A stretch of 64,000 nt of DNA from a virus. A program made the position numbers and the translations under genes. The notes beneath the pieces are model-generated. The model was given only the letters and a program-made list of their open reading frames with translations. It was not told the DNA's origin and did no database searches. Below, in pieces: positions 827 to 63,940 of the stretch (position 1 is its first letter; each line of letters begins with the position of its first letter). The stretch lies in the IMG/VR virus record IMGVR_UViG_3300025645_000065; one strand, given 5' to 3'.

Positions 827-3157
827 CTACAATCCTCCTCTATCTACTATGTACCAATTGTATGTATTGGTTAGGATATCTCTTGCACCTTGGCTAGTTA
901 TGCTAGTATAGTTAGTATCTGCTGCGCTAAAGGATACGTTCTGCGGTATAGCTGGTGCGGTTGCCCATGCATTTAGTAGGGTATCGTAGTTAGTTCGGCT
1001 GAAGCTTGTACCGTCTAGCATCTTCCATGCAGTCTGTAGGTTGTCGATAGGTATGCTTGAAATATCTTGATTAAACGATGTTGCGTTGTAAAACATCTCG
1101 TCTGCGTTTTGCAGGGAGGTGAAAGTACTCCAGTTTAGGGATTGGTCGAAAGCAGAGGCAGAATAAAACATACCGGAAGCATCTGTAATGCCGGTTAAGT
1201 TCCAGGTGTTTAGGTTTATTCCGTCATTGTTGTATGATACTGCTTCTGCGAACATATTACTGGTATTTCCTACGGAAGTCATAATCCAGTTTCCTATGTT
1301 TTGATTAAAGTTTCTTGTGCTTGCAAAGGTGTTTGACATGTTAAGGATGCCGTCAGTATCCCAGGTGAGAAGTGGGCTATTGAAAGATGTAGCGTTAGCG
1401 AACATATAACTTATGTTATGTGCATTGCTTAGGTTAAATCCTTGTATATCTTGATTGAATGAGGTAGCGTTATTGAACATATATGAGAAATCAATACCTG
1501 CAGCTGTATCGAGGTCTATTGCAGAGTTAAAATCTGTAGCATCTTTAAACATACTGTTAAATGTAAGAACTTGCGAGGTGTTCCAGGATAGTGGTTGATT
1601 GAAGTTGGATGCTCCTTCAAACATGCTCTTTACAGTAGTTGCATTTATAAGATTCCAGTCAGTTAATGGACTGTTAAAATTTACAGCATCTTTAAAGGTG
1701 TTCTCGAACGATGTTACTGTAGTAGTTATTAGGTCTGATAAGGAGCCACTTAATAAGGTAGTTCCTCTGAACATATCTTTAAAGCTAGTAGTACTTACTG
1801 CGGGTCGCCCTGTTGCAGTTAATTTAAAATCCGGCCTATTAGTTCCTAGGTTATCTGCTCCGTAAAAGGAAGCGCTTGTAGATAGTTCTAAAACGCCCCA
1901 ATCGAAGATGTCTAATATACTAGAGGTGTATCCTGTATTATTGAAAGCAAAGCCTTTACATGTTCCGTTTATTGTAATGGTGTAGTTTCCGGAGGTCGAG
2001 TAGTTGTGAGTCTTTTCGGCATCATCCCAGGCGGTTATTGTATCTGTAGTACCGTCTCCCCAGTCCACTATCATGTTATACTCTCCGTCTGCTACGAGCG
2101 GCAGTGAGATTGGGCTATTTGCTATCCAGTAGCTAGTGAAGGGGTCTCCTTCCCACGGAGTACTTATATAACCTGATCCTGATGTCTCAAATGAATAGTT
2201 AAATTGATTATACCAGTAGTCCCAGGTGTTTAGGTTTTTATCCTTACCTCCGAATTCTGAGATTCTTAATACTGTATCTGGTATTCCGAAACAGTTTAGT
2301 AATACCCTTAGCCCTGAAGCTGTTCCTTTCTTTTTTAATAGGTACGGAAGGTTGTGGTATAATCTCTTATAAATTAGTTTCTGAGCGTCGTTGAAGGGTA
2401 TAGTTTCTGCAGATGAAGTTACATATGTAGTAATTACCTCACTCCCTGTTGAGGGTAGTGTTCCGCCTGCTTCTGTTATTCCTAATAAAGCGGTAAATAA
2501 ATCTCCGTCTGTGAAGCTGCTTTCATATAGATCGATTCCGTAGGATTTTAATGCATCTGCTACTAGGTCGGTTGATATGCCTCCGCTAAGGCTATTATCT
2601 GCATCTTGTCTATTCTTTAATGCATCAGTATAGAGCCAGATTTCATCAAACATTTGAGCAGTTAACTCGGTGAAGAGTTTGAACTGTGCGTTGTTTTCGT
2701 CGTCTACTATATAGGTTGGGAACGTACTGTATAGGTTGTTTCTGTTATCGTTATCATATAATGTAGCGGTGCCAGATTGTTCATCAAGCCAGTTTATTAC
2801 TGCTGAAGAGCTATAGGAGTATGGTATGTAAGGGGGTGTTGTATTTTGTTTCGGCCACGCTGCAGATCCACTTTCGTAATACAAGTAGTAGTCATATCCA
2901 TCAAAGTTTCGGATGATACTCGCAATCTCGTTCTCGTAGAATGCTTTGCTAGATGCTAGTTCTGTGGGTGGGGTATTTGTAAGTCCGTTTAGAGTATCTA
3001 CTGCATTGCTATAGGTTTCTAAAAGGGTTGCTTTATAATTAAAGTTTGTTAACCTCGTTTCAGCGGAGCTAAAGAATATAAAGTTTTCATAGTCTGTATA
3101 GTCTATATTTAACTCTGCTCTATTCTCTGCTAGTATGCTCTGCAATCTGTTAGTCAT
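827..3157 (-). CDS. Tail fibre / receptor-binding protein with DUF285-type (BspA/Mycoplasma-like) ~26-aa repeats
   Basis: 776 aa. Tandem motifs FNxATSFNQDI..WNTS.VT.M..MF repeat about 8 times. Sits in the baseplate/tail module. Confidence 0.55.
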   Translation of the reverse strand: MTNRLQSILAENRAELNIDYTDYENFIFFSSAETRLTNFNYKATLLETYSNAVDTLNGLTNTPPTELASSKAFYENEIASIIRNFDGYDYYLYYESGSAAWPKQNTTPPYIPYSYSSSAVINWLDEQSGTATLYDNDNRNNLYSTFPTYIVDDENNAQFKLFTELTAQMFDEIWLYTDALKNRQDADNSLSGGISTDLVADALKSYGIDLYESSFTDGDLFTALLGITEAGGTLPSTGSEVITTYVTSSAETIPFNDAQKLIYKRLYHNLPYLLKKKGTASGLRVLLNCFGIPDTVLRISEFGGKDKNLNTWDYWYNQFNYSFETSGSGYISTPWEGDPFTSYWIANSPISLPLVADGEYNMIVDWGDGTTDTITAWDDAEKTHNYSTSGNYTITINGTCKGFAFNNTGYTSSILDIFDWGVLELSTSASFYGADNLGTNRPDFKLTATGRPAVSTTSFKDMFRGTTLLSGSLSDLITTTVTSFENTFKDAVNFNSPLTDWNLINATTVKSMFEGASNFNQPLSWNTSQVLTFNSMFKDATDFNSAIDLDTAAGIDFSYMFNNATSFNQDIQGFNLSNAHNISYMFANATSFNSPLLTWDTDGILNMSNTFASTRNFNQNIGNWIMTSVGNTSNMFAEAVSYNNDGINLNTWNLTGITDASGMFYSASAFDQSLNWSTFTSLQNADEMFYNATSFNQDISSIPIDNLQTAWKMLDGTSFSRTNYDTLLNAWATAPAIPQNVSFSAADTNYTSITSQGARDILTNTYNWYIVDRGGL

Positions 3158-3231
3158 CCCTGCAGCAGAGGCTGTGGTTAATGTACTGAGTGTCTGATAT
3201 TCTGTTGTGGTATTCGTCTGAGTACCGGTCT

Positions 3232-4077
3232 TTAAGTTAAAGTTAGGTCCTCGTAGGATTTTTCCTCTAGGTAGCTGTACCTCTTCTGGCGGGTATATAA
3301 CACTGAAGGAGGTAGAGTCTGATATTTTCCCGACCAGGTTAAAGTTAGAACTTCGGCTGAAGGTATTAGGGAGAGGTTGGTATAGTTTAAGGAGTAGGTT
3401 TCCGTTCCTCTAGGTAGCTGTACCTCTTCTGGCGGGTATATAACACTGAAGGAGGTAGAGTCTGATATTTTCCCGACCAGGTTAAAGTTAGAACTTCGGC
3501 TGAAGGTATTAGGGAGAGGCTGGTATAGTTTAAGGAGTAGGTTTCCGTTTTCAAATCCTACATTAACAGCTAACTGTATTTGATTAGAGCCGAAATCTAA
3601 GTACATGCCTGAAAAGGCAATACTTGTGTTTAGAGTTGTGTTTAGCTGCTCGTAAACTCCTCGTAGTTGTACTGTGTTTAGGGTGCTGCTACTTACTCTA
3701 AGCTCTGTTCTATCGAGTGATATTTCAGATATAAGAAGAGTTGGATTTCCGGTTATTAGCCCGGTTATGAAGTTGTACTGTGTATTGTATCTTCCCTGTG
3801 TATATCCGTTCCCTAAGAGGTCTTTCCCGGGATCTATACTTATAGAAGTTATACCGGATACAGGATTGGTAGTTACTACATTATAAGATGTAGTAAGTCT
3901 TGATATAAACGTATTGTTAAGGTCGTATAGGTACGCTTGTATTATATCGGTAGCGGGATTAAAAGTTCCTCCAACTTCAAAGCTAGTTACATTTGCTCCG
4001 TCTGTAGGAAGTAATGTACTTGTCGTTGTAGTTTCTAACGTATCTACGCCTAGTGCTGTTACTATTGGTTCTGCCAT
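3232..4077 (-). CDS. Tail-fibre N-terminal segment. Its 3' end is frameshifted by a 143-bp tandem duplication.
   Basis: 281 aa. The second repeat copy is read in the +2 frame and gives a stop at 3232. With a single copy the frame reads straight through into the 827..3157 ORF. Confidence 0.5.
   Translation of the reverse strand: MAEPIVTALGVDTLETTTTSTLLPTDGANVTSFEVGGTFNPATDIIQAYLYDLNNTFISRLTTSYNVVTTNPVSGITSISIDPGKDLLGNGYTQGRYNTQYNFITGLITGNPTLLISEISLDRTELRVSSSTLNTVQLRGVYEQLNTTLNTSIAFSGMYLDFGSNQIQLAVNVGFENGNLLLKLYQPLPNTFSRSSNFNLVGKISDSTSFSVIYPPEEVQLPRGTETYSLNYTNLSLIPSAEVLTLTWSGKYQTLPPSVLYTRQKRYSYLEEKSYEDLTLT
3264..3549. repeat. Tandem direct duplication, 2 x 143 bp (3264-3406 and 3407-3549), 1 mismatch
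   Basis: Direct sequence comparison. The only difference is ggttgg versus ggctgg. Confidence 0.9.
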
Positions 4078-5604: not shown

Positions 5605-7464
5605 TTATAGTGATACTACTCGTCCTCTAATATCTGTGTTTGGGTATTTGACTTCGAATACGCATGGATCTAGTGAGGGGTATATTATATTATCTCTCGT
5701 AGCTCCTGTAATGTCATAAGCGTATTCAGAGTAGCCTAACGATATTCCGGATTTGTTTGTAATCTGTATATCTTTAACGGTCTGTACTCCGTTTATTTTA
5801 TCTAGGTTTATATACAACTCTTTTAACAGTATAGGTTGATTGAATGTTCTGTTATCTATATTAAAGTAGGATTGTAATTCTACTATACATCTACTTATAA
5901 CTTCGTTACTGTTAAAATTAGGAAGCGTGATGATTTCGAAATCTATTCCTATGTTAATAATAAAGCCGTCTTTAATACTAACGGTATCCCCTATTATCCT
6001 GTACTCAGAAAGGTATGTGCTTAAGTTCTTCTTTACTGTAGAGGATACTGTGTTTAAATTTTTAATTCGGTCAAACCCTAAAATATACAATGTTAGAGTT
6101 GCGGGTAATTCTCCCGGTAAGGTGTTCTCACTTGCTTTAGTAGGCTCTACGTAGGCTTTGGCTATTGACCCGTAATCAGAAGGCATTGATAGTGCTCTGA
6201 TCATATAATCTTTAGTTGTTACGTTTCTTAATTGTGATTGGAATCCTACTAAAGTGTTCTGTCTAATCTCTTCTACAGTATCTCCATCACCGCCGCCAGA
6301 TGCTGCGGATGGGTTAGTTATTGCTAAAGTATTGAAGATGTAATTAGAAGTAGTTGCGTTAAGGTTACTATTTTGAAAGTTAGCATTTCCTGTAGATACT
6401 ACTGTGGTGATTGTTTCCGCATCTACGTTTGCTGCTACTCCTCCGCCGGTAAGGTACCTGACTGTTAATGTTGTGTTAGCGGGTGCTATACCGTATGTAT
6501 CCGTCTGTAGGAAGTTGGTAGGATCAAATGCAGTGTACAGTTTTATTTGCTCGAAAGGTAATCCTAATCCTACGTTATTACTATTAGGTATAATACTCTC
6601 ATCTACATCTCCAGTAGTGCCTGATCCGAACTGTATCTCTAAGGTGTTGTTTGCTCTAAATCTTGTTACAAATCTTCTGCTTACTTTTTCTAGCTTAAGT
6701 AGATATGGCGCGTCTGCATCTGCAAAAGTGTTTGGGTTATCTACGTTGGTATTTTTTAATGACTTATAGATCAACTCTTGACCTAGGTATGGAACTTCGT
6801 ACCATGTATTTCCGTCGGAGTCTATTATATCTAGTACTTTGATTATGTTTGTATCTGATATAGAGACTGTTGAGAAGGCTTCGGGGGTATTGAAGGTGAA
6901 GGCTGTGGTTTGTATAGTAGAAGAGATTGCTTGACGTGTCTTTTTAAGCAGGTAGTATTGCGGATCCCCTCCACTGGTTTGATATATTGTTACTTCTGTA
7001 GGGTCATAAGAGCTTGAGACTGTAAAGTCTACTGAGTCTTGTACTAGGAAGTTGATCCCCTGTGCGTCTGTCTTTACTACTGTATTTTCTGAAATGAAGA
7101 GAGCGTAGTTGAAATCCGGTACGTATGTGCTTCCTTCTAGTTTTGAAGGTAGTTGTTGGTACATATCTATACCTACAGTTGAGGTCTTTGTTACTTTAGG
7201 TCTATATCCTAACATATAAGCTAGGTTATAAATACTTTCCGTCTGTCTTGCATGTTGTACGAAGGTCTCTTGTATTTGATTATCTAAATAGAAAGAGAGT
7301 ACGTCTCCAACGTAAGCAGACATTTCTAATACCATCATCCCTGGGGAGGCTGGTGAGAAGTCATTATAGGTGTCCGGGTAGTATGTCTTTGTAAAGTCTA
7401 CTAGGAGGTCCTTAAGTCCTGTGAAATCCCTATTAAAGTATTTTATGTCTTTTGTGTTAGCCAT
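5605..7464 (-). CDS. Baseplate wedge protein (Baseplate_J / gp6-like, tentative)
   Basis: 619 aa. Directly upstream of the gp25-like gene, with size and position matching the usual baseplate gene order. Confidence 0.4.
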   Translation of the reverse strand: MANTKDIKYFNRDFTGLKDLLVDFTKTYYPDTYNDFSPASPGMMVLEMSAYVGDVLSFYLDNQIQETFVQHARQTESIYNLAYMLGYRPKVTKTSTVGIDMYQQLPSKLEGSTYVPDFNYALFISENTVVKTDAQGINFLVQDSVDFTVSSSYDPTEVTIYQTSGGDPQYYLLKKTRQAISSTIQTTAFTFNTPEAFSTVSISDTNIIKVLDIIDSDGNTWYEVPYLGQELIYKSLKNTNVDNPNTFADADAPYLLKLEKVSRRFVTRFRANNTLEIQFGSGTTGDVDESIIPNSNNVGLGLPFEQIKLYTAFDPTNFLQTDTYGIAPANTTLTVRYLTGGGVAANVDAETITTVVSTGNANFQNSNLNATTSNYIFNTLAITNPSAASGGGDGDTVEEIRQNTLVGFQSQLRNVTTKDYMIRALSMPSDYGSIAKAYVEPTKASENTLPGELPATLTLYILGFDRIKNLNTVSSTVKKNLSTYLSEYRIIGDTVSIKDGFIINIGIDFEIITLPNFNSNEVISRCIVELQSYFNIDNRTFNQPILLKELYINLDKINGVQTVKDIQITNKSGISLGYSEYAYDITGATRDNIIYPSLDPCVFEVKYPNTDIRGRVVSL

Positions 7465-7867
7465 TAGTTAGGTTTAGTTGTATTGTATCGGTTACTCCTG
7501 TATTAGTAATTGTATAGTTAATTACAGTAAATAGTGAATTATTATCTTGATCTGCTCGTAACTCTACGGTTGCTTGTATACTTGGAAAGTATCTTGCTAT
7601 CTCTACTTCTATATACTCTTGGATACCGTCGATATTGTTCTGGCTCATTTGTTCAAATATAAAAGTCTGCAACCCGGCTCCGAATCCAGGGTGAAAAGGT
7701 CTTTCGCGTGGACTGGTTAATAGAAGGTTAATTAGGTTATTTCTAATAGCATCTTTAGTAGTGTAAGTAGCTTTAAACACGGCGGGGCCGTTAAAAGGGA
7801 TACTAACACCTACAGCTTTACTTGGTATTCTATCTATCGGGGCTATATTGATTGCGTTAATAGCCAT
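7457..7867 (-). CDS. Baseplate wedge subunit, GPW/gp25-like
   Basis: 136 aa. Motif LLTSPRERPFHPGFGAGL matches the gp25 family signature (ERxxxPxFGxxL). Confidence 0.55.
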   Translation of the reverse strand: MAINAINIAPIDRIPSKAVGVSIPFNGPAVFKATYTTKDAIRNNLINLLLTSPRERPFHPGFGAGLQTFIFEQMSQNNIDGIQEYIEVEIARYFPSIQATVELRADQDNNSLFTVINYTITNTGVTDTIQLNLTNG

Positions 7868-12036: not shown

Positions 12037-12792
12037 TTAGACATTAGATCTTTTAATCCTTTCACTCTTAACTCCTCCTAGGGCTGTTGTTCGTGCCTTA
12101 GCTTGTACTTTTACTTTTGGTGCAGCAGTAAAGTTTTTAGATACGTCTCTAGTTGGTGCATGTAAGTGTCTTTCTACTTCTGCAGCTAAAAAATCTGCTT
12201 GATGTAAGATAAACATTATAACGCTCTTAGGACGGCTTTCTGGTATTCTTGATATAAAGTACCCTTTGTTAGCGTCATCATATAGGCCGTCGTGAGACCT
12301 GATTGCTAACATTTCGTTTAAAGTATACTGTATCCCTGCTTCTTGTAATAGGAATAATGACCTGTCTGGGATGGTCATAAATCCTACCTCTTTATTGTAG
12401 GAATATAGTTCTCCTAAGTTCTTCTTTCTCCAGTCGTTGTCTGAAGCTACATATAAATCATTGGTAGAGTCTCCTACTTTTCCTAAGTCGTGATTAATTG
12501 CAGAGAATACTAACTCCTCTACTGTGAAGGTCTCCATATCTGCTCCAAATCTACTCCATAATTCTCTAACCTCTAAAGCAGCAGATACTACTCTATTGAC
12601 ATGCTCTACATACCCTCCAGGGAAGCAATTGTGGTAGTTCACATTAGCGGCAGCAGGCATGAGAATAAACCTATCTATTTGGCTATTGTAGAATTCTAGT
12701 AACTTTTCTTTTCTTGGAGACGAAATATGAGTCTCAATATTACTAAGGAAGAGCGTCCAGTTAGATTGTATTTGTTCTGCGGTTAGATTCAT
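12037..12792 (-). CDS. HD-domain phosphohydrolase
   Basis: 251 aa carrying the H..HD..D motifs (INHDLGK, SHDGLYDD). Confidence 0.5.
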   Translation of the reverse strand: MNLTAEQIQSNWTLFLSNIETHISSPRKEKLLEFYNSQIDRFILMPAAANVNYHNCFPGGYVEHVNRVVSAALEVRELWSRFGADMETFTVEELVFSAINHDLGKVGDSTNDLYVASDNDWRKKNLGELYSYNKEVGFMTIPDRSLFLLQEAGIQYTLNEMLAIRSHDGLYDDANKGYFISRIPESRPKSVIMFILHQADFLAAEVERHLHAPTRDVSKNFTAAPKVKVQAKARTTALGGVKSERIKRSNV

Positions 12793-13931: not shown

Positions 13932-14598
13932 TTATTGCTTAGGTTCGCCGAATATGACAGCTTTATTGAAGTAAGTAATTGTATTTGCAAGTTGACGAGT
14001 TAATTTCTCATCCCCTAAGCCCTTGGCAGCTTCATAAGCATCTACTAATTTACCGAATATTTCTTTTGAATCTCCGCCTGTTGCTAGATCTACTGGTGCA
14101 TCCATTCCCATATCAGGTTCAGCAGTCATGTCTGCCTCTGGTGCGTCGGTAGGTTCTTCTGCTGTATCTATAGCGATATCTTCTTCATCAGCTTCTCTAA
14201 GGTTCATCTCATCGTTAGGGTCTAAAGACATAAGTCTTTTAGCGATTTCTGAATGAAGGTACTCTGCTACATCAGCGGAATCAAACTCGTCGCCGGATTC
14301 GATCTGATCTCTATAGATCATCTCTGCAGCGTCTAGTAAGCTGTTTAATGCTTCTAAGTTAGTTAGTCCATCTATTCGATGCGGGATCAAACTCGTCGCC
14401 GGATTCGATCTGATCTCTATAGATCATCTCTGCAGCGTCTAGTAAGCTGTTTAATGCTTCTAAGTTGGTTAGTCCATCTATTCGATCAGCAGTTTCAGGA
14501 TCGAGTTGTTCTTTGATTAATGGTTTTTTATACATGTTGTCATAGAACTCTTTTCTAGTCTTCTGTACAAATGCTTGGATGTTGAAATTATCGGACAT
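13932..14598 (-). pseudogene. Hypothetical acidic protein gene split by a 106-bp tandem duplication. ORFs 14359..14598 and 13932..14390 are its two pieces.
   Basis: Both ORFs encode RIDGLTNLEALNSLLDAAEMIYRDQIESGDEFD. Removing one copy restores a single ORF of about 195 aa. Confidence 0.6.
14275..14486. repeat. Tandem direct duplication, 2 x 106 bp (14275-14380 and 14381-14486), 2 mismatches
   Basis: Direct sequence comparison. Confidence 0.9.
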
Positions 14599-24776: not shown

Positions 24777-25265
24777 TCATTTGTTTAGTATTTGTTGTGT
24801 TAATTTTAAATCGTTTTGGTTCTCAGGATGTTCAGCAAAACAATGTTCCCAATATTCTTGAACTGCTCGCTTGATAAATTCCACTTCTTCAATTGTGTAT
24901 GTTTTATCAAAGCCTCTGCTTTCTCCATTTGAACTTTTGAAGGTTAGTTCTTTGCCTTGTGAATCGTAGGTATATTCACAACAAGTTCCTTTTGAATTTT
25001 TATAGGTTAATAAATTACCATTTGAATCGTATGTATATTCACAACTATATCCATTTGAATGTTTGTAGGTTAATACCTTACCTTGTGAATCTCTTGTATA
25101 TTTATACCAAGTTCCATCTGAATTTTTATAGGTTAATAAATTACCATTAGAATCTCTGGTGTATTCACAACTATATCCATTTGAATCTTTGTAATACTTA
25201 TAAACTTTGATACCATTCTCATTGAATAGTTCTAAATTCTCTTCTGTTCCTTGTATGTTTTTCAT
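24777..25265 (-). CDS. YD/RHS-like repeat small protein (MKNIQGTEENLELFNENG leader family)
   Basis: 162 aa. Tandem ~21-aa repeats YKNSDG.S.EYTRDSNGK.LT carrying the Y.YD..G.L signature. Confidence 0.4.
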   Translation of the reverse strand: MKNIQGTEENLELFNENGIKVYKYYKDSNGYSCEYTRDSNGNLLTYKNSDGTWYKYTRDSQGKVLTYKHSNGYSCEYTYDSNGNLLTYKNSKGTCCEYTYDSQGKELTFKSSNGESRGFDKTYTIEEVEFIKRAVQEYWEHCFAEHPENQNDLKLTQQILNK

Positions 25266-25738
25266 TGTTTCTTTTTAAATTGTTCAAACCATTCTTGCTC
25301 TTGAATTTCATCACTAAAAGATAAATATTCTTTAAATTCTTTAAGAATTATCAACACCTCTTCAGGTGTGTAGGTTTTATCAAAGCCTCTGCTTACTCCT
25401 TTTGAATTTTTATAGGTTAGTTCCTTACCTTGTGAATCTCTTGTATATTCACAAGTAAATCCATTTGAATCTTTGAAGGTTAATACCTTACCATTTGAAT
25501 CGTACGTGCGTTCATACCAAGTTCCATATGAATCTTTGAAGGTTAATTCCTTACCATTTGAATCGTAGGTGTATTCATACCAATATCCATTTGAATTTTT
25601 ATAGCTTAACTCATTACCGTTTGAATCTCTTGTGTATTCATAGCTATATCCAAATGGATGTTTAAAATACTCATAAACTTGTTTACCATTATCATTGAAT
25701 AGCTCTAAGTTCTCTTCTGTTCCTTGTATGTTTTTCAT
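25262..25738 (-). CDS. YD/RHS-like repeat small protein
   Basis: 158 aa paralog ending WFEQFKKKQ. Confidence 0.4.
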   Translation of the reverse strand: MKNIQGTEENLELFNDNGKQVYEYFKHPFGYSYEYTRDSNGNELSYKNSNGYWYEYTYDSNGKELTFKDSYGTWYERTYDSNGKVLTFKDSNGFTCEYTRDSQGKELTYKNSKGVSRGFDKTYTPEEVLIILKEFKEYLSFSDEIQEQEWFEQFKKKQ

Positions 25739-25740
25739 TG

Positions 25741-26160
25741 TTATTTTTTTATCTTAAAGTTGCCTAATTTGGATACTAACTCCTCCATAGTGTACTCAGG
25801 TATATCAAAGCCTCTGCTTACTCCTTTTGAATTTTTAAAGGTTAGTTCATTGCCATTTGAATCTCTTGTATATTCATACCAAGTTCCTTTTGAATTTTTA
25901 TAGATTAACTCGTTACCCTTTAAATCGTAGGTGTATTCGTAACTAAATCCATTTGAATCTTTGAAGGTTAGTTCCTTACCGTTTGAATCGTATGTACATT
26001 CATAACTAAATCCATTTGAATTTTTGAAGGTTAATACCTTACCTTGTGAATCGTAAGTACATTCTTCACTATATTCATAAGCTTTAAAATACTCATAAAC
26101 TCTTATGCCATTCTCATTGAATAGCTCCAAATTCTCTTTTGTTCCTAATATGTTTTTCAT
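25741..26160 (-). CDS. YD/RHS-like repeat small protein
   Basis: 139 aa paralog ending SRGFDIPEYTMEELVSKLGNFKIKK. Confidence 0.4.
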   Translation of the reverse strand: MKNILGTKENLELFNENGIRVYEYFKAYEYSEECTYDSQGKVLTFKNSNGFSYECTYDSNGKELTFKDSNGFSYEYTYDLKGNELIYKNSKGTWYEYTRDSNGNELTFKNSKGVSRGFDIPEYTMEELVSKLGNFKIKK

Positions 26161-26162
26161 TA

Positions 26163-27011
26163 TTATTTCTTTTTAAATTGTTCAAACCATTGTTCTAAAT
26201 CTACTGTCACTAATGCTGATTGCAAGGCTTCTGAAATAATTAATTTAACTTCTTCCTCACTATACATTCTTTCTTGTTGCCATTCAGTACCTTCTTTAAA
26301 GTTTTGAATTTGTAATAGTTTACTATCTATCCATTGCTGTGTAGGAACTGGTATCATAGCTGTCTTCCTATTGTAATTAGCTTCGGCAGCTTCTTCAAGT
26401 GTTTCTTGTTTAGTTTCTTCTTTTGTCAGTTTAATTGCACAAGGTTCACATTGAACTGCTCTTTTATCTCCTGTAAATTCTATTTTACAAGTTACACAAG
26501 TACACCCATAATGACCCGGAGCATACCCACCAATTGGATATTTTTGTTTAGTTTTTTCTTTTGGAATGATAGTTTTGTGTCTTACTTTTGTATCAACTTC
26601 CCATTCAGATGGTAATAAAACCTCTTTCCATACTCCGTTGTTAGATAAGTATTCTTTCTCAACCTCAACCTCCTCACAACTTGGATTCTTAACAAACCAT
26701 TCTAAGAACTCATCATCAATAGCTTGTACACCATCTTTGATTAAATCTTGGTCTGTTGTTAGAATGATTTGTCTTGGTTTATTGTTACTTATTAAAGCCA
26801 TTGTGTTTTGCCATAACCAAACCCTACCATTATTATAAACCCAAATATTATTTTCAAATCCAGTAATTTCTTCATCAGATGTGATGTAGATGTGTTTTGC
26901 AATATTGGTTGGATGTTGAGAAGGAAATTCATCTAATTCTAATCTTCTTCTTAGATTATTAATCCATAACCTACTTGGTTTGTCTGTTGGAATTACGTGT
27001 ATATTTTTCAT
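26163..27011 (-). CDS. Hypothetical protein with a Cys-rich zinc-ribbon segment. Its C-terminus is shared with the gene at 41787..42500.
   Basis: 282 aa. Contains HYGCTCVTCKIEF...CEPC and a C-terminal EGTEWQQERMYSEE...WFEQFKKK module. Confidence 0.3.
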   Translation of the reverse strand: MKNIHVIPTDKPSRLWINNLRRRLELDEFPSQHPTNIAKHIYITSDEEITGFENNIWVYNNGRVWLWQNTMALISNNKPRQIILTTDQDLIKDGVQAIDDEFLEWFVKNPSCEEVEVEKEYLSNNGVWKEVLLPSEWEVDTKVRHKTIIPKEKTKQKYPIGGYAPGHYGCTCVTCKIEFTGDKRAVQCEPCAIKLTKEETKQETLEEAAEANYNRKTAMIPVPTQQWIDSKLLQIQNFKEGTEWQQERMYSEEEVKLIISEALQSALVTVDLEQWFEQFKKK

Positions 27012-27012
27012 A

Positions 27013-27372
27013 TTATTTTTTTATTTTAAAGTTTCCAATTTTGGATACTAACTCTTCCATAGTGTACTCAGGTATATCAAAGCCTCTGCTTTCTCCATTT
27101 GAATCTTTGTATGTTAATTCATTGCCATTTGAATCTCTTGTATATTCACAACTAAATCCATCTGAATTTTTGGAGGTTAATATCTTACCATTTGAATCTC
27201 TTGTAAATTCATAACTATATCCATCTGAATTTTTATAGGTTAATACCTTACCATTTGAATCTCTTGTATATTCACAACTAAATCCATTTGAATTTTTAAA
27301 ATACTCATAAACTCTTACACCCTCTTGATTGAATAGCTCTAATTTCTCTTCTGTTCCTAATATGTTTTTCAT
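27013..27372 (-). CDS. YD/RHS-like repeat small protein
   Basis: 119 aa paralog, preceded by motif-2. Confidence 0.4.
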   Translation of the reverse strand: MKNILGTEEKLELFNQEGVRVYEYFKNSNGFSCEYTRDSNGKVLTYKNSDGYSYEFTRDSNGKILTSKNSDGFSCEYTRDSNGNELTYKDSNGESRGFDIPEYTMEELVSKIGNFKIKK

Positions 27373-27388
27373 CTTATTTCTTATTACT

Positions 27389-27424
27389 CCGTAAATATAC
27401 GAACAGTATCTTGGGGAGCCAACA
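27389..27424 (-). promoter_or_regulatory. Motif-2 copy upstream of the YD-repeat gene 27013..27372
   Basis: ccgtaaatatacgaacagtatcttggggagccaac. Confidence 0.4.
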
Positions 27425-27430
27425 AAAATC

Positions 27431-27739
27431 TTATTTGTTTTTGTTAAACTCTTTCCAATTATTATAAGTCAAACCCCATTGTAGACTGAACCATTGCATT
27501 TCCTTCTCTGCTTGCTTAGCATACTTGTTTAAGTTTTTCATGAGGTATTTTTTACCCCATTTTTTAAACTCCTCACCTTGCTCAACCGTCATTGTGTACT
27601 TTTGAAACCAATTATCTACACCTACCACATCCTGATACGTAACATCATGACCAGCAATGATAAACATTTGATTGATTAAATCAATAACTGCCTTATCTTG
27701 CTTTTCCTCTCGACTTAATCGTTTACGTTTAACTTGCAT
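27431..27739 (-). CDS. Hypothetical protein
   Basis: 102 aa ORF. Confidence 0.3.
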   Translation of the reverse strand: MQVKRKRLSREEKQDKAVIDLINQMFIIAGHDVTYQDVVGVDNWFQKYTMTVEQGEEFKKWGKKYLMKNLNKYAKQAEKEMQWFSLQWGLTYNNWKEFNKNK

Positions 27740-28068
27740 AATTCGTAATTGCTATTTTCTGTCTTAAATATAATATAATTCTCTCGCTCTTCCACAATCT
27801 CTGTAATGGGGGTACATTGCCAAGTAAAGAATTGATTGAATGGAGACATAAGTAAACTCCTACCAATGGCAGGTTCATCATGTTTAGATTTAAAACGACC
27901 TTCATCGTTAAACTCAATCCACATTATCCTAGCTGATTCTTTTAGTAGATTATCTCGTTCACGAACCAATCTATATTTAGGTTCTTCTGTGTCTAAGTTT
28001 AATTCTAATTTCAACTCACCATCTAAACCTAATGTTACTGGTATTTTAGTTTGTTTTATCTTGCTCAT
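27715..28068 (-). CDS. Hypothetical protein
   Basis: 117 aa ORF. Confidence 0.3.
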   Translation of the reverse strand: MSKIKQTKIPVTLGLDGELKLELNLDTEEPKYRLVRERDNLLKESARIMWIEFNDEGRFKSKHDEPAIGRSLLMSPFNQFFTWQCTPITEIVEERENYIIFKTENSNYELCKLNVND

Positions 28069-28748
28069 ATAATTTCAAATACATTTCCATTACTGCTTAA
28101 TTTACCGAACTTACCATCAGTAACCACAGAACCATTTGAGAATATTGTATCTAGCTCTGGTATTGTTCTAGTACCAGCATTGATAATATCATTGTAATTA
28201 TGGATATGGCCAAACATCACAAATCCAGGATTTACTTCTATAACTCTATTCAATAATGATTTATCCCCACAATGCTCCATACTACCAACTCTATCATAAG
28301 ATAGATCTAACATACCTTTTGGAGGTCCGTGAACAACAATAATATCAACATCTTCATCTATAACATTTCTCCACATTCGTTCTAGTTTATTTCTATCCTT
28401 ATTGAACGACCATCCATATCCAAAAGTTGGGGTGTAGGGTGAACCAAAGATCTTTAAACCCTCTATTTGGATAGTTTCATTTTCAAGATAGTGAATACCA
28501 TGATCTTTAAAATCTGATTTAGTGACAAACCTTTTCTCAATACTAGTATCATGATTACCGGCTACAAATATTTTATGCTGTATAGGTAAATTAGCAAACC
28601 AATCAATAAATGCTCTAACTTCAGGTTCATTACTATAAGGGTCTCTTGGATTGCTACAATCACCACTAAAAATAACCATAGCAACACCTTCAGGTATTTC
28701 TAGTAAGTCATGGAAGGTGTGTGTATCGCTTATATGCCAGATTTTCAT
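28065..28748 (-). CDS. Calcineurin-like metallophosphoesterase
   Basis: 227 aa carrying the MPP motifs GDCSNPRD, GNHD and GHIH. Confidence 0.55.
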   Translation of the reverse strand: MKIWHISDTHTFHDLLEIPEGVAMVIFSGDCSNPRDPYSNEPEVRAFIDWFANLPIQHKIFVAGNHDTSIEKRFVTKSDFKDHGIHYLENETIQIEGLKIFGSPYTPTFGYGWSFNKDRNKLERMWRNVIDEDVDIIVVHGPPKGMLDLSYDRVGSMEHCGDKSLLNRVIEVNPGFVMFGHIHNYNDIINAGTRTIPELDTIFSNGSVVTDGKFGKLSSNGNVFEII

Positions 28749-29167
28749 TTTTTTATTTTAAAGTTACCTAATTTATTAACTAACTCCTCCATTGTGTACT
28801 CGGGTATATCAAAGCCTCTTGTTTCACCATTTGAATCTTTGAATGTTAATTCATTACCTTGTGAATCCCTTGTGTATTCATAACTATATCCATCTGAATT
28901 TTTGTAGTTTAATATATTACCTTTTGAATCGTAAGTGTATTCATAACTATATCCATCTGAATTTTTGAAGGTTAGTACTTTACCATTTGAATCTCTTGTA
29001 TATTCACAACTAAATCCATCTGAATTTTTATAGGTTAGTACATTACCATTTAAATCGTATGTGTAGTCATAACTTACTCCAGATAAATGTTTAAAATACT
29101 CATAAACTTTTATACCCTCTTTAGTAAATAATTCTAATTTCTCTTCTGTTCCTTGTATGTTTTTCAT
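28745..29167 (-). CDS. YD/RHS-like repeat small protein
   Basis: 140 aa paralog. Confidence 0.4.
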   Translation of the reverse strand: MKNIQGTEEKLELFTKEGIKVYEYFKHLSGVSYDYTYDLNGNVLTYKNSDGFSCEYTRDSNGKVLTFKNSDGYSYEYTYDSKGNILNYKNSDGYSYEYTRDSQGNELTFKDSNGETRGFDIPEYTMEELVNKLGNFKIKK

Positions 29168-29168
29168 A

Positions 29169-29528
29169 TTATTTTTTTATTTTAAAATTACCTAATTTAT
29201 TAACTAATTCTTCCATAGTGTACTCAGGTATATCAAAGCCTCTGCTTACACCATCTGAATTTTTGAAGGTTAATTCATTGCCATTTAAATCGTATGTAGC
29301 TTCATAACTAAATCCATCTGAATTTTTATAGGTTAATACCTTACCATTTGAATCTCTTGTAAATTCATAACTATATCCATCTGAATTTTTATAGGTTAAT
29401 ACCTTACCATTTGAATCTCTTGCAAATTCATAACTATATCCATATGAATCTTTGTAATACTCATAAACTCTAATACCATTCTTATTGAATAGGTTTAATT
29501 TGTCTTCTGTTCCTAATATGTTTTTCAT
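29169..29528 (-). CDS. YD/RHS-like repeat small protein
   Basis: 119 aa paralog. Confidence 0.4.
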   Translation of the reverse strand: MKNILGTEDKLNLFNKNGIRVYEYYKDSYGYSYEFARDSNGKVLTYKNSDGYSYEFTRDSNGKVLTYKNSDGFSYEATYDLNGNELTFKNSDGVSRGFDIPEYTMEELVNKLGNFKIKK

Positions 29529-30838: not shown

Positions 30839-31043
30839 CTTTTGTTATTTTTTTAAATATTATATACCCAATTGTACAAATGCAAAGGAGGTTTAAGAAT
30901 AGTCCCGTATAGAATGCTATATCGTTTGGATAATTCATTAAAAAATTTCCTAGTTCGATTAAATTTAATACTGCTACCGCTCCTATAAACCATAGGAAGT
31001 AGTTAAGGAAAAGTTCGTAAAATTCTTTTAGTTTTTCTTTCAT
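30828..31043 (-). CDS. Small membrane protein
   Basis: 71 aa with two hydrophobic helices. Confidence 0.3.
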   Translation of the reverse strand: MKEKLKEFYELFLNYFLWFIGAVAVLNLIELGNFLMNYPNDIAFYTGLFLNLLCICTIGYIIFKKITKDDK

Positions 31044-31050
31044 TTTTTAT

Positions 31051-31068
31051 TATACCTAAAGATACGAA
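31051..31068 (-). promoter_or_regulatory. Motif-1 copy fused to a GC hairpin plus T-tract (terminator)
   Basis: tatacctaaagatacgaa followed by aaaaaagcctgcagaagcaagcttttt. Confidence 0.4.
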
Positions 31069-31098
31069 AAAAAGCCTGCAGAAGCAAGCTTTTTCTTT

Positions 31099-34505: not shown

Positions 34506-34522
34506 GCTTTTTTTTCAATTTG

Positions 34523-34595
34523 TAGTCAGGACAGGTCTCGAACCTATACTCTTCTGTACCAAAAACAGACGTGTTGCCAATTACACCACCTGACT
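34523..34595 (-). tRNA. tRNA-Gln(UUG), canonical 73-nt cloverleaf
   Basis: Hand fold: acceptor AGTCAGG/CCTGACT, D stem GTGT/ACAC, anticodon stem TCTGT/ACAGA, loop TTTTGGT, T loop TTCGAGA, A73. Confidence 0.6.
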
Positions 34596-37110: not shown

Positions 37111-37116
37111 ATATAG

Positions 37117-56245: not shown

Positions 56246-57853
56246 TTAGCCGTAGATTAAGTCTTGACTTTTCTCCTCTGGCTTGTCTGTAAGTTCGTCT
56301 GCTACGACTGCTTCGGTAAGCATTATCGTTCCTGCTACTGATGCTGCATTCTCTAATGCTGTTCTTGTTACTTTAAAAGGGTCTATAATACCTGCTTCTT
56401 TCATATTAACAATCTTTCTATCATGTACATGGTAGCTACTCCAAGGCCCTGCTTCTAAGACTTCTCCTAATACGGTTTCGATTTCCTCTCTCTCGTATCC
56501 TGCATTGCTTAGGATCTTAATAAATGGAGCTTGACAAGCTTCTTGAACAATCATTGCACCTGTTGAGGTTCCGGTTATGTTCATACTTGCATGTAGTAAT
56601 GTTGATCCTCCGCCAGGTACGATTCCTTGCTCGATTGCTGCTCTAGTAGCGTGTAATGAATCCTCTACCCGGTCTTTAGTCTCTTTCATTTCTATTTCAG
56701 AATTACCTCCTACGTGTATGATAGATACTCCTCCTGTAAACTTACCTAATCTTTCTTGAAGCTTTTCAGTCTCGAATGGAGTTTTTGCATTATCGATTTG
56801 AGATCTTAGTTCTGCTATTCTCTGATCGATTGCTTCTGGTGCTCCTTTGCCGTCTATAATGATAGTATTCTCTTTCATTATGTTAGCTTTTCTAGCTTGT
56901 CCGAACCATGCTCTATCTAGCCGAGTGAGCTTCATTCCCTTCTCAGGGCTAATTACTTGCCCGCCTGTTAGTATAGCTATGTCTTCCATTATTAACTTTC
57001 TCCTATCTCCAAAGTCAGGAGCCTTTACTGCAACTACTTTTAAAGTACCTCTCATCTTATTAACGATTAAGGTTGCAAGTGCTTCGTTGTCTATATCCTC
57101 ACATACAATTAATAAAGATTTATTCTCAGAAGATACTGATTCTAATACCGGTAGTAGTTCTTTAGCTTGAGATAGTTTACCGTCGTAGATTAATACGTAA
57201 GGTGAGTCTAGGACTGCTGACATATTACTGTTATCGTTTACGAAGTATGGAGACTTGTAACCTCTATCGAATTGAATGCCTTCTACAGTCTCTAAGTAAG
57301 TCTCTCCTGTTCTAGATTCTTCGATAGTTACAATACCGTCTCTACCTACTGCTTCGAGTGCAGATGTAATAAGGTTACCTACCATCTCATCGTTGTTAGC
57401 AGATACTGTAGCAACTTGCTTAAGCTGGTCTTCTGCTGTTATCTCTTCTGCAATGTTTGCTTTAATATAGGCTATAACTTCTTTAACTGCTTCATCTACT
57501 TCTCTTTTAATCTGTACTGCATTTCCTTTATTATCTAATGCGTTAAGACCTCCTCTAGTAATAGATTGCGCTAGTAGAGTAGAGGTTGTTGTTCCATCCC
57601 CTGCTGTGTTAGCGGTGTTGATTGCAGCCTGCTTAAGCATATCGATTGCTATTGATCTAACTGGATCTTTTAGCTCTATAACTTTTGCTACCGTTACACC
57701 ATCTTTAGTGGACCGTACTTCTCCGGTTTCATCTCTGTACACTACGTTCCGTCCGTTAGGCCCTAATGTGGAGGTTACTGCATTTGCCAGTAAGTCAATA
57801 CCTGCAAGCAGTTGCTTCCTAGCTTCGTTTGAATATTCTATGTGTTTGCTCAT
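56246..57853 (-). CDS. groL: Chaperonin GroEL (Cpn60)
   Basis: 535 aa, full-length similarity to GroEL (AAVEEGIVPGGG, GGG(S/T)). No GGM tail. Confidence 0.9.
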   Translation of the reverse strand: MSKHIEYSNEARKQLLAGIDLLANAVTSTLGPNGRNVVYRDETGEVRSTKDGVTVAKVIELKDPVRSIAIDMLKQAAINTANTAGDGTTTSTLLAQSITRGGLNALDNKGNAVQIKREVDEAVKEVIAYIKANIAEEITAEDQLKQVATVSANNDEMVGNLITSALEAVGRDGIVTIEESRTGETYLETVEGIQFDRGYKSPYFVNDNSNMSAVLDSPYVLIYDGKLSQAKELLPVLESVSSENKSLLIVCEDIDNEALATLIVNKMRGTLKVVAVKAPDFGDRRKLIMEDIAILTGGQVISPEKGMKLTRLDRAWFGQARKANIMKENTIIIDGKGAPEAIDQRIAELRSQIDNAKTPFETEKLQERLGKFTGGVSIIHVGGNSEIEMKETKDRVEDSLHATRAAIEQGIVPGGGSTLLHASMNITGTSTGAMIVQEACQAPFIKILSNAGYEREEIETVLGEVLEAGPWSSYHVHDRKIVNMKEAGIIDPFKVTRTALENAASVAGTIMLTEAVVADELTDKPEEKSQDLIYG

Positions 57854-57856: not shown

Positions 57857-58185
57857 TTAGTCTTCTATTTGTGCTAATATTTGATTCTCCGGTCCGATGA
57901 AGTACTCTTCTCCTCTGTACTCGAATCTAGTGAATCCCATTGTTGGAAGTACTACCCGGTCTCCTTCTTTGAAAAGGGTAGCTACAAAGCCTACTCCTGG
58001 CATATTATTCCCAGGACCTACGCTTACTATTTCTCCCATTTTGTTTTTCTCGCTACCTAAATCCGGAATTCTCCCATTTTGTTTTTCTCGCTACCTAAAT
58101 CCGGAACAATAATGTTACCGTGGTATTCATCCTCTAGCTCTATCGGCTTTACGATAACTGCATTGTAAACTGCTTTTAGTTTCAT
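57857..58185 (-). pseudogene. groS: Co-chaperonin GroES interrupted by a perfect 38-bp tandem duplication (frameshift). ORF 57857..58039 is its C-terminal part.
   Basis: The N-terminal 41 codons starting at 58185 (MKLKAVYNAVIVKP...GSEKNKMGE) hit a stop inside the second repeat copy. Removing one copy gives a 96-aa GroES. Confidence 0.7.
58031..58106. repeat. Tandem direct duplication, 2 x 38 bp (58031-58068 and 58069-58106), identical
   Basis: Direct sequence comparison. Confidence 0.95.
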
Positions 58186-63280: not shown

Positions 63281-63940
63281 TTATTTTCTGTATTCTGCTA
63301 TTAATGCATCCGCTCTCTTGACAGCTTCTTCTAAACCTAAAGCATTATCCCCAGGTGTTCCTAAGTCCCCTCCTTCGTATTCTTCATCAGCTCCATGAGC
63401 TATTTTATTATCAAACTCAGTGTAGGCATCTTGTATACTTTGAAGTTCCGGTAGAGCATTTCCTTCATAGTTTTGCTCTAGCCAATGCCCCATTTCTACC
63501 AGTCCTGAATTAATTTTTCCGGTTATTCTATCGTAGTCTTCAGGTAGTACCTTATTCGTCATACTGTAAGGAGCTTCGTTTAGCTCTTCATTAAACATAT
63601 CCGTCATACTGTAAGGAGCTTCGTTTAGCTCTTCACTAAACATATCCTGTATATGGTTTGCAGCTAGTTCTGCTGCTTCGTCTAGTGAGATTCCTGCTGT
63701 ATGTGCTATGTTTTTAACTACCCGCTCTAAGTCCTCTAAAGCTGCATCCATGAATCTATCCTCAGTGACATTTCCTTCCATAGTAGTTACTTTAGCACCT
63801 GCTTTTTCAAGATTAGCCTTATCTGCAGGAGATACTACTTGTGCAGCAGATGTTCCAGATGGGCCGGTTACTTTACTTAAAGTTCCTACCTCTTTTAACA
63901 TTGCCTGGCGTATAACTTCTTTTAGTTCTGCTCTTTTCAT
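63281..63940 (-). CDS. Hypothetical protein with an in-frame 15-aa tandem duplication
   Basis: 219 aa with MFSEELNEAPYSMTD followed by MFNEELNEAPYSMTN. Confidence 0.35.
   Translation of the reverse strand: MKRAELKEVIRQAMLKEVGTLSKVTGPSGTSAAQVVSPADKANLEKAGAKVTTMEGNVTEDRFMDAALEDLERVVKNIAHTAGISLDEAAELAANHIQDMFSEELNEAPYSMTDMFNEELNEAPYSMTNKVLPEDYDRITGKINSGLVEMGHWLEQNYEGNALPELQSIQDAYTEFDNKIAHGADEEYEGGDLGTPGDNALGLEEAVKRADALIAEYRK
63557..63646. repeat. Tandem duplication, 2 x 45 bp, 1 mismatch, in frame
   Basis: Direct sequence comparison. Confidence 0.9.

What the first reader, a model, noticed from the sequence alone, without database searches (positions are those of the whole stretch)
827..4077. 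A 143-bp near-perfect tandem duplication splits what would otherwise be one ~1036-aa tail-fibre ORF
Copies at 3264-3406 and 3407-3549 differ at one base. Because 143 is not a multiple of 3, the second copy is read out of frame. That ends ORF 3232..4077 at a TAA at 3232. If one copy is deleted in silico, the frame continues ...VQLPRGKILRGPNFNLKTGTQTNTTTEYQTLSTLTTASAAG and runs directly into MTNRLQS, the start of the 776-aa DUF285-repeat fibre ORF. The two ORFs are therefore halves of a single receptor-binding protein. The options are a very recent duplication, an assembly artefact, or an unstable on/off switch for a host-range determinant that reverts by recombination between the copies.
Basis: seen in the sequence. 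Interest (0 to 1): 0.65.

Follow-up and report, generated by a model that had tools for sequence, protein, structure and literature searches.

The report
False tandem duplication splitting a fibre gene
The 143-bp duplication is really in this sequence and does cut one 1035-residue phage baseplate or fibre gene in two, but it is almost certainly an assembly error of one metagenome contig and not a biological host-range switch.

Summary
Positions 3262-3549 are a 143-bp unit repeated 2.0 times with one mismatch (3377 T / 3520 C). Removing either copy fuses ORF 4077..3232 (281 aa) and ORF 3157..827 (776 aa) into one 1035-aa ORF.

The biological reading is not supported.
1. The intact 1035-aa gene exists in many independent assemblies that are 97.8-99.9% identical in DNA to the window. 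Every one is single-copy.
2. The split products occur once among about 15 billion proteins, all on one 67,632-bp JGI/IMG contig, which is the window's source.
3. The window holds three more private near-perfect tandem duplications: 106 bp at 14275-14486, 38 bp at 58031-58106 and 45 bp at 63553-63647. Two of these also break genes, including a phage GroES.
4. The mismatches between copies fall exactly on sites that are polymorphic in the natural population.
5. The flanking haplotype changes at three of the four duplications.
6. Contigs from other assemblies tend to end at these sites.

Together these are the signature of uncollapsed strain overlaps, known as false "heterotype" duplications. A real recent duplication is unlikely, at about 10%, but cannot be excluded without the reads. 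An evolved on/off switch is very unlikely. Interest is low.

The parts
3264..3406 (-). Copy 1 of the 143-bp unit on the + strand. It is the second copy met by the ribosome and is read out of frame. It carries T at 3377 (allele A in gene orientation).
   Evidence: The T allele is also present in the independent contig Ga0075466_1000829 (L005).
3407..3549 (-). Copy 2 of the 143-bp unit. It is the first copy in gene orientation and is read in the native frame. It carries C at 3520.
   Evidence: The C allele is shared with L003 and L004. This copy plus 3 kb to its right is identical to L003.
3232..4077 (-). ORF A, 281 aa. It consists of native residues 1-225 of the fibre-like protein plus 56 out-of-frame residues, then TAA.
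   Evidence: This exact product is a singleton in the 15-billion-protein collection and sits on one 67,632-bp JGI/IMG contig.
827..3157 (-). ORF B, 776 aa. It starts at an internal Met (residue 260 of the intact protein) and holds the helical domain plus the C-terminal DUF285 (BspA-type LRR) repeats.
   Evidence: Pfam DUF285 E=1.7e-69. The identical product P0086 is found only on the 67,632-bp contig.
827..4077 (-). The true gene. After one copy is removed it is a single 1035-aa ORF lying downstream of the baseplate genes (gp25-like 7457-7867, wedge 5605-7464, 374-aa 4441-5565, 123-aa 4077-4448).
   Evidence: Intact 1035-aa orthologues are on L003, L004, L005 and the contigs of L006-L010, L012 and L013. 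Synteny with immuto35A_157-161. PHROG/Pfam baseplate hits.
3261..3261 (.). Private SNP immediately left of the repeat (T; all comparators C; Lys225 instead of Arg225).
14275..14486 (-). Second private tandem duplication: 106 bp x 2.0 with two mismatches, out of frame. It splits a 186/187-aa gene into ORF 14598..14359 (79 aa) and ORF 14390..13932 (152 aa).
   Evidence: It is single-copy in all nine comparator contigs that cover the site, and the eight that carry the whole gene (L006-L013) have one 186/187-aa ORF. Copy 1 matches the haplotype of L011 (A,A) and copy 2 matches the haplotype of L012, L008 and L006 (G,G).
58031..58106 (-). Third private tandem duplication: 38 bp x 2.0, identical copies, out of frame. 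It splits a phage GroES (Cpn10) gene into 42-aa and 60-aa ORFs directly upstream of GroEL (57853..56246). A private SNP at 58030 abuts it.
   Evidence: All five comparators have an intact 96-aa Cpn10. In-silico repair restores Pfam Cpn10 positions 1-93 of 93.
63553..63647 (-). Fourth private tandem duplication: 45 bp x 2.1, in frame. It adds 15 residues to ORF 63940..63281, giving 219 aa where other contigs have 204 aa.
   Evidence: It is single-copy in L016 and L017 (204-aa gene). The within-unit mismatch 63591/63636 is a population polymorphism.
12057..12060 (-). Private 1-bp insertion (GAAGG to GAAAGG) next to a polymorphic site. It frameshifts the last codons of a 255-aa gene, which is 251 aa in the window.
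   Evidence: The insertion is absent from all 11 comparators.

Best explanation
The 143-bp tandem duplication is a false duplication made when the source metagenome contig was built. The source is a 67,632-bp JGI/IMG contig assembled from a mixture of closely related phage strains. At a place where strains differ, two partial assemblies from different haplotypes overlapped by 143 bp. They were abutted, or a gap was filled, instead of the overlap being collapsed. The overlap therefore appears twice, each copy carrying its own strain's allele.

The real phage has one uninterrupted 1035-aa gene at 4077..827 (minus one copy). The gene encodes a baseplate-distal, fibre-like protein with an N-terminal beta domain, a helical middle and a C-terminal DUF285/LRR domain.

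Shown: the duplication is private to this contig; it is one of four in the window; the copies carry population alleles; and the flanking haplotype switches at the join. Inferred: the exact software step that produced it.
For: 1. Single-copy allele in independent assemblies. P0001 and P0002 (1035 aa) are essentially identical to the in-silico fusion. Their contigs L003 and L004, plus L005, are 97.8-99.8% identical in DNA to the window, and every alignment breaks exactly at the duplication. Seven further contigs (L006-L010, L012, L013) carry a 1035-aa gene call.

2. Uniqueness. The 281-aa and 776-aa products, and the 219-, 42-, 60- and 79-aa products of the other duplications, each occur on only one contig among about 15 billion proteins. 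It is the same 67,632-bp JGI/IMG contig for all six. The junction 38-mer is absent from the IMG/VR and JGI contig collections.

3. Not an isolated event. There are four near-perfect tandem duplications of 38, 45, 106 and 143 bp in 64 kb. All are absent from every comparator. Three are out of frame, and one of those splits the phage GroES gene. There is also a private 1-bp frameshifting insertion. Against these five private structural changes, only four private SNPs were found in 28 kb covered by at least three comparators.

4. Heterotype signature. All four within-unit mismatches between copies fall on the only four sites in those units that are polymorphic among the comparators. These are 3377/3520; 14279/14385 and 14361/14467; and 63591/63636.

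5. Haplotype switch at the joins. To the right of the 143-bp duplication there are 0 mismatches to L003 in 3 kb, and to the left 10 true mismatches. To the right of the 106-bp duplication there are 0 mismatches to L012 in 1043 bp, while the left side matches L011.

6. Assembly break points. Contigs from other assemblies end near these sites: 6 of 23 contig ends lie within 150 nt of a duplication, P about 0.001.

7. All four units are shorter than 150 bp.

8. The phenomenon is documented. False heterotype and homotype duplications that create false or fragmented genes are described in Ko et al. 2022 (PMC9516828).
Against: - No reads are available, so read depth and junction-spanning reads, which are the direct test, were not examined.
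- There is no run of N between the copies. Such a gap often marks false duplications in scaffolds (PMC9516828).
- No single k-mer or overlap length explains the four unit sizes, and the responsible program is unknown.
- The 2-bp microhomology at the junction is also what replication slippage would leave.
- The break falls in a predicted inter-domain linker, so a split protein is not obviously non-functional.
- The 38-bp duplication shows no haplotype switch.
Confidence: 0.85

Rival explanations
1. A real, very recent duplication in a real genome. Template switching or unequal recombination between two co-infecting strains would have produced a tandem duplication that inactivates the gene. The contig would then report a defective or transient genotype that was abundant in that one sample.
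For: The 2-bp TT microhomology at the junction fits slippage. Different alleles in the two copies could come from recombination between strains. Real tandem duplications in phage tail-fibre genes are documented, for example the in-frame 1.8-kb duplications in Enterococcus phage EfV12-phi1 (PMC6365445).
Against: The same contig would need four independent fresh duplications plus a 1-bp frameshift. These would disrupt the fibre-like gene, GroES, a 186-aa gene and the end of a 255-aa gene, and the genotype would still have to dominate a natural population. None of these changes is seen in any of about 20 contigs from other samples and assemblies, nor in the protein collection. Two private SNPs sit on the outer edge of two duplications and not at the novel junction. 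Slippage does not predict that, whereas an assembly unit that starts at a variant site does.
Confidence: 0.1
2. An evolved, reversible on/off switch of a host-range determinant. The out-of-frame duplication would turn the fibre gene off, and recombination between the copies would turn it back on.
For: Perfect direct repeats of 143 bp can be lost by homologous recombination, so reversion is mechanistically possible (established knowledge, not tested here). The gene has a strain-variable C-terminal LRR domain, as adhesins often have.
Against: There is no copy-number variation at this site in any other contig, and all are single-copy. No pre-existing repeat tract or conserved sequence feature marks the site in homologues. 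The same kind of duplication hits unrelated genes in the same contig, including a chaperonin cofactor. The copies carry different population alleles. An off state would leave a structural gene of the baseplate module broken.
Confidence: 0.02
3. A naturally split gene, or one expressed through programmed ribosomal frameshifting that joins the two ORFs.
For: The two ORFs overlap in different frames across copy 1. The break lies in a low-confidence linker between predicted domains.
Against: 77 of 78 homologues, including near-identical ones and the isolated phage immuto, are single ORFs that are colinear across the site. The only other 776-aa gene call (P0080, L021) is single-copy DNA with a 1-bp insertion, in a contig full of indels. 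A frameshift product would carry a duplicated 48-residue segment that is seen in no homologue.
Confidence: 0.01

Closest known systems
False heterotype duplications in genome assemblies (Kelley & Salzberg 2010, cited from memory and within PMC9516828; Ko et al. 2022, Genome Biol 23:205, PMC9516828)
   Same: Two alleles of one locus are placed next to each other in one assembly. The copies differ only at sites that are polymorphic in the sampled population. The result is a false gain or fragmentation of genes, and the duplication is absent from better or independent assemblies.
   Different: The published cases are kilobase-scale haplotype duplications in diploid vertebrate assemblies, often with an assembly gap between the copies. 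Here the units are 38-143 bp with no Ns between them, the 'haplotypes' are co-occurring phage strains in a metagenome, and read depth could not be checked.
Adaptive tandem duplications in phage tail-fibre genes (Enterococcus phage EfV12-phi1, PMC6365445; T4 gene 37 duplications, Tetart et al. 1996, cited within PMC6365445 and from memory)
   Same: A tandem duplication lies inside a putative fibre or adhesin gene of a myovirus.
   Different: The real cases are in frame, lengthen the fibre, recur in independent populations and were confirmed by coverage, PCR and long reads. Here the unit is out of frame (143 mod 3 = 2), truncates the protein, occurs in one contig only and is accompanied by similar duplications in unrelated genes.
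Flavobacterium phage vB_FspM_immuto gene immuto35A_161 (MW353176, genus Immutovirus)
   Same: The gene occupies the same place in the same gene order: gp25-like, baseplate wedge, a protein of about 370 aa, a protein of about 115 aa, then this gene. It shares 34% identity over residues 30-575 in one colinear alignment across the split point.
   Different: It is a single 1265-aa ORF with a different C-terminal part that has no DUF285 match to the window's protein. It is annotated only as a hypothetical protein.

Membership tests
False (heterotype) assembly duplication | The duplication is absent from independent assemblies of the same genome or population. | tested here: met
   L003, L004 and L005 are single-copy at 97.8-99.8% DNA identity. 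Seven more contigs (L006-L010, L012, L013) encode the intact 1035-aa gene. The split products are singletons on one contig.
False (heterotype) assembly duplication | The two copies carry alternative alleles that segregate in the sampled population. | tested here: met
   At 3377/3520 the alleles are T and C; L005 has T, while L003 and L004 have C. The same holds for the 106-bp and 45-bp duplications. In total, 4 of 4 within-unit mismatches fall on the only 4 polymorphic sites.
False (heterotype) assembly duplication | Each copy is in phase with the haplotype of its own flank, giving a chimeric join. | tested here: met
   A haplotype switch occurs at the 143-bp, 106-bp and 45-bp duplications but not at the 38-bp one.
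False (heterotype) assembly duplication | There is about half read depth on each copy, with discordant or missing junction-spanning reads. | not testable with these tools
   No reads of the source metagenome are available.
False (heterotype) assembly duplication | An assembly gap (run of N) lies between the duplicated copies. | tested here: not met
   The copies abut directly at 3406|3407 with no N. This feature is frequent in published cases but is not obligatory.
Adaptive in-frame tail-fibre duplication (T4 gp37 / EfV12-phi1 type) | The unit length is a multiple of 3, so the fibre is lengthened and not truncated. | tested here: not met
   143 mod 3 = 2. The ORF ends 56 codons into the second copy.
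Adaptive in-frame tail-fibre duplication (T4 gp37 / EfV12-phi1 type) | The duplication recurs, or its copy number varies, in independent populations. | tested here: not met
   Every other contig is single-copy.
Phase-variable contingency locus (reversible repeat-number switch) | Both on and off repeat numbers are found among close relatives at the same site. | tested here: not met
   Only the one-copy state is found outside this contig.
Programmed ribosomal frameshift / naturally split gene | The two-ORF arrangement is conserved in homologues. | tested here: not met
   77 of 78 homologues span residues 200-300 in one HSP. The immuto orthologue is a single ORF.
DUF285 (PF03382, BspA-type leucine-rich repeat) proteins | A Pfam DUF285 match above the gathering score. 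| tested here: met
   E=1.7e-69, 231.5 bits against a cut-off of 25, with four stretches in the C-terminal third. The AlphaFold model shows a repetitive beta/LRR-like C-terminal region with weak LRR fold hits only.
Phage tail fibre / receptor-binding protein | Sequence or fold similarity to a characterised fibre or receptor-binding protein. | tested here: inconclusive
   There is no PDB sequence hit, no Foldseek hit at E<=0.001, and the PHROG hits are all 'unknown function'. Only the position after the baseplate wedge genes and the variable C-terminus support this assignment.

The most novel reading that the evidence does not exclude
The contig is faithful. In that one sample the dominant genotype of this estuarine or Baltic-type Flavobacteriia-like myophage would really carry several fresh tandem duplications of 38-143 bp. 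These would have formed by template switching between co-infecting strains, which would explain why the two copies carry different alleles. The fibre-like gene and GroES would be knocked out and could revert by recombination between the copies. That would imply an unusually duplication-prone replication or recombination system, and tolerated, perhaps helper-complemented, defective genomes in nature.
Probability: 0.04. Interest if true: 0.6.

Novelty: not a real feature. Interest (0 to 1): 0.08.

Why it matters
Taken at face value, the duplication would suggest a reversible genetic switch on a phage host-range gene and a split receptor-binding protein. Neither reading is warranted.

The practical value is as a quality flag. 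This 67.6-kb metagenome contig contains at least four uncollapsed overlaps and one frameshifting indel. These create six spurious ORFs (281, 776, 79, 152, 42 and 60 aa) and one protein with 15 extra residues, and these products have already entered a public protein collection as singletons.

Tandem repeats in such contigs that are near-perfect, shorter than a read and out of frame should be checked against independent assemblies before being interpreted biologically. Checking whether between-copy mismatches fall on population polymorphisms is a quick read-free way to recognise them.

Tried and rejected
- Near-identity search of 827-4077 against 50,697 phage records gave no match, so the window is not a deposited isolate.
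- Exact look-ups of ORF A, ORF B and the 219-aa product in the contig index found nothing on record. The source contig could therefore not be fetched. Only its length and origin (67,632 bp, JGI/IMG) came out of the protein collection.
- The junction 38-mer was not found in IMG/VR or in the JGI metagenome contigs, and the 3261-T 46-mer was not found in IMG/VR.
- The two 776-aa members of the P0001 cluster looked at first like independent split genes. P0086 turned out to be the window's own ORF B. P0080 (L021) is single-copy DNA with a 1-bp insertion, in a contig riddled with indels. This lead was rejected.
- I tried to explain the four unit lengths (38, 45+5, 106, 143+2) and the edge SNPs by a single de Bruijn k-mer overlap (MEGAHIT or SPAdes k lists). 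No consistent k fits, so the assembler step stays unidentified.
- Misincorporation at the slippage junction was rejected as an explanation for the private SNPs at 3261 and 58030, because they sit on the outer edge of the duplication and not at the copy1|copy2 junction.
- Structure prediction gave pLDDT 72.6. The PDB Foldseek search and the PDB sequence search gave no significant match, so the fibre or receptor-binding role could not be confirmed.
- TRF at a lower score threshold found no further near-perfect two-copy duplications.
Full report
**1.

Tandem Repeats Finder reports one array at 3262-3549 with period 143, 2.0 copies, 99% matches and no indels.

The gene is on the minus strand. ORF 4077..3232 (281 aa) reads the first copy it meets (3549..3407) in the native frame and the second copy (3406..3264) out of frame. 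It stops at TAA 3234..3232. ORF 3157..827 (776 aa) carries DUF285 repeats. Both deletions give the same protein, because the mismatch is a synonymous CAA/CAG Gln codon.

**2. The two ORFs are halves of one gene**

A search with the first 599 residues of the fused protein found 78 homologues. The best are 1035-aa proteins that are 100% identical (rounded) over the query (P0001, P0002). Over its full length the fusion differs from P0001 at four residues. 77 of the 78 homologues span residues 200-300 in a single alignment.

In the isolated Flavobacterium phage vB_FspM_immuto the gene order is the same: gp25-like, baseplate wedge, a 369-aa protein, a 112-aa protein, then the homologue. That homologue is one 1265-aa ORF, colinear with the fusion over residues 30-575. 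Near-invariant residues lie inside the duplicated segment (K183, L184, Y185, L188) and just after it (P230, N231).

An AlphaFold model has mean pLDDT 72.6. It shows a beta domain at residues 1-216, a low-confidence linker at 217-274, a helical domain at 275-550 and a beta/LRR C-terminal region. The duplicated unit encodes residues of about 178-225, which form the last two strands of the N-terminal domain.

No solved structure matches significantly by sequence or fold, and the PHROG hits are of unknown function. 'Tail fibre / receptor-binding protein' is therefore an inference from position and from the variable LRR C-terminus.

**3. The single-copy allele is what exists in nature**

Three contigs that encode the intact gene were fetched:
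- ERZ27275003 k141_482299 (L003)
- ERZ23495719 NILS19-1 scaffold_5353 (L004)
- Ga0075466_1000829 (L005)

They are 97.8-99.8% identical to the window over 7-14 kb. In each, the alignment breaks exactly at the duplication and resumes 143 bp on. Seven further contigs from other samples encode a 1035-aa gene at this place, and the 90%-identity cluster holds many more intact members.

The window's 281-aa and 776-aa products each occur on one contig only among about 15 billion proteins. That contig is a 67,632-bp JGI/IMG contig, evidently the window's source. The junction 38-mer is absent from the IMG/VR and JGI contig collections.

Another 776-aa gene call (P0080) turned out to be single-copy DNA with a 1-bp insertion in an indel-ridden contig. 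It is not a natural split.

**4. The duplication is one of four**

Scanning the whole window shows three more near-perfect two-copy tandem repeats:

| Position | Unit | Mismatches | Frame |
|---|---|---|---|
| 14275-14486 | 106 bp | two | out of frame |
| 58031-58106 | 38 bp | none | out of frame |
| 63553-63647 | 45 bp | one true within-unit mismatch | in frame |

- The 106-bp duplication splits a gene into 79-aa and 152-aa ORFs that share the peptide DRIDGLTNLEALNSLLDAAEMIYRDQIESGDEFD. The eight comparator contigs that carry the whole gene (L006-L013) have one ORF of 186 or 187 aa there.
- The 38-bp duplication splits a phage GroES gene into 42-aa and 60-aa ORFs just upstream of a GroEL gene. 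All five comparators have a 96-aa Cpn10, and collapsing the repeat restores Pfam Cpn10 positions 1-93 of 93.
- The 45-bp duplication adds 15 residues to a protein that is 204 aa elsewhere.

All comparator alignments break exactly at each duplication. The window also has a private 1-bp insertion near 12058-12060 that frameshifts the end of a 255-aa gene. Against these five private structural changes there are only four private SNPs in 28 kb covered by at least three comparators. That ratio is implausible for real evolution and typical of consensus errors.

**5. The copies are different strains' alleles**

- 143-bp unit: the only mismatch (T/C) is a site where independent contigs differ. L005 has T; L003 and L004 have C.
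- 106-bp unit: copy 1 carries A,A as in L011, and copy 2 carries G,G as in L012, L008 and L006. L007 and L013 carry A,G.
- 45-bp unit: the within-unit mismatch is T in L017 and C in L016.

All four within-unit mismatches therefore fall on the only four sites in these units that vary among the comparators. Random post-duplication mutations would not do that.

The flanking haplotype also changes at the joins:
- Right of the 143-bp duplication the window is identical to L003 for 3 kb, with one SNP in 6.5 kb. To the left there are 10 differences in 3 kb.
- Right of the 106-bp duplication it is identical to L012 for 1043 bp. To the left it follows L011.
- A switch is also seen at the 45-bp duplication, but not at the 38-bp one.

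Contigs from other assemblies tend to end at these same places. Two JGI contigs end at window 3692, one ends 8 nt left of the 143-bp unit, one starts inside the 106-bp unit, one starts 89 nt from it, and one starts 32 nt from the 45-bp unit. That is 6 of 23 contig ends within 150 nt of a duplication, P about 0.001 under uniform placement. These sites are therefore graph break points caused by strain variation.

**6. Interpretation**

The pattern has five elements:
- It is private to one metagenome contig.
- It occurs several times in that contig, in unrelated genes.
- The units are shorter than a short read.
- The copies carry alternative population alleles.
- The haplotype switches at the join.

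This is the signature of overlaps between strain-specific partial assemblies that were abutted and not collapsed. It is the metagenomic equivalent of the false heterotype duplications, with one homotype case at the 38-bp site, that Ko et al. describe as creating false and fragmented genes (PMC9516828). I put this at about 85%.

A real recent duplication is not excluded without reads, and the 2-bp microhomology would fit slippage. It would, however, require four fresh duplications plus a frameshift, four of the five gene-disrupting, in a genotype that dominates a natural sample and is seen nowhere else. I put this at about 10%.

An evolved reversible switch, and a programmed frameshift or natural split, are contradicted by the uniformly single-copy, single-ORF relatives. 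Genuine adaptive fibre duplications are in frame and recurrent (PMC6365445).

**7. Unexplained detail**

Two of the four private SNPs lie on the base immediately left of a duplication: 3261 next to 3262, and 58030 next to 58031. Both are C to T on the + strand. They are on the outer edge of the duplication, not at the novel junction. This fits an assembly unit that begins right after a variant site better than it fits a replication error. I could not derive a single k-mer or overlap rule that explains all four unit lengths, so the responsible software step is unknown.

**8. Verdict**

The inference that the two ORFs are one gene is confirmed. The biological switch is not supported, and the most likely cause is an assembly artefact. 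Interest is low. The useful outcome is a warning about this contig and its spurious ORFs, and a simple read-free test for such artefacts: check whether mismatches between copies coincide with population polymorphisms, and whether independent assemblies are single-copy.

Noticed in passing
window 14275-14486, 58031-58106, 63553-63647: Three more near-perfect two-copy tandem duplications (106, 38 and 45 bp). They split a 186/187-aa gene, split the phage GroES gene and add 15 residues to a 204-aa protein. All are absent from independent contigs.
   Followed up: yes
window 12057-12060: Private 1-bp insertion (GAAGG to GAAAGG) next to a G/A polymorphic site. It shifts the frame of the last codons of a gene that is 255 aa in 11 other contigs and 251 aa here.
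   Followed up: partly
window 3261 and 58030: Two of the window's four private SNPs (both C to T on the + strand) sit on the base directly left of a tandem duplication. They are on its outer edge, not at the copy1|copy2 junction. The cause is unexplained.
   Followed up: partly
window 56246-58957: The phage encodes its own chaperone set: GroEL (535 aa, Cpn60_TCP1), GroES (96 aa once repaired) and an HSP20-family protein (138 aa, 58541-58957).
   Followed up: partly
window 34500-37600: A tRNA cluster on the minus strand. ARAGORN calls six genes (Gln, Val, Ile, Met, Gly and one with an odd 4-base anticodon). About eleven copies of a tRNA 3'-end-like repeat (GGACAGGATTCGAACCTG) suggest further tRNA or tRNA-like genes that were not called.
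   Followed up: no
window 18907-63253 (14 copies, e.g. 31035-31097, 37883-37945): A conserved intergenic motif, TATACCTAAAGATACGAA, followed by a GC-rich hairpin and a T run. It lies upstream of many minus-strand genes and looks like a phage promoter with a terminator module of the Bacteroidota type.
   Followed up: no
window 24777-29528 and 42028-42515: A family of seven small paralogous genes built from 63-nt (21-aa) repeats, all with the same N-terminus MKNI(Q/L)GTEE.LELF. Pfam gives RHS_repeat (YD repeat) for the one member tested.
   Followed up: partly
L021 (JGI 3300073957, Ga0634395_01785), whole locus: A related 43.5-kb contig (about 92-95% identity) has many small indels that fragment most baseplate genes. 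Its 776-aa gene call mimics the window's ORF B but arises from a 1-bp insertion. It is probably an unpolished long-read assembly.
   Followed up: partly
window 3254, 3692, 14186, 14466, 63521: Contigs of other, independent assemblies end at these positions, close to the duplications. This indicates recurrent assembly break points caused by strain variation, notably at the start of the variable fibre-like gene.
   Followed up: yes
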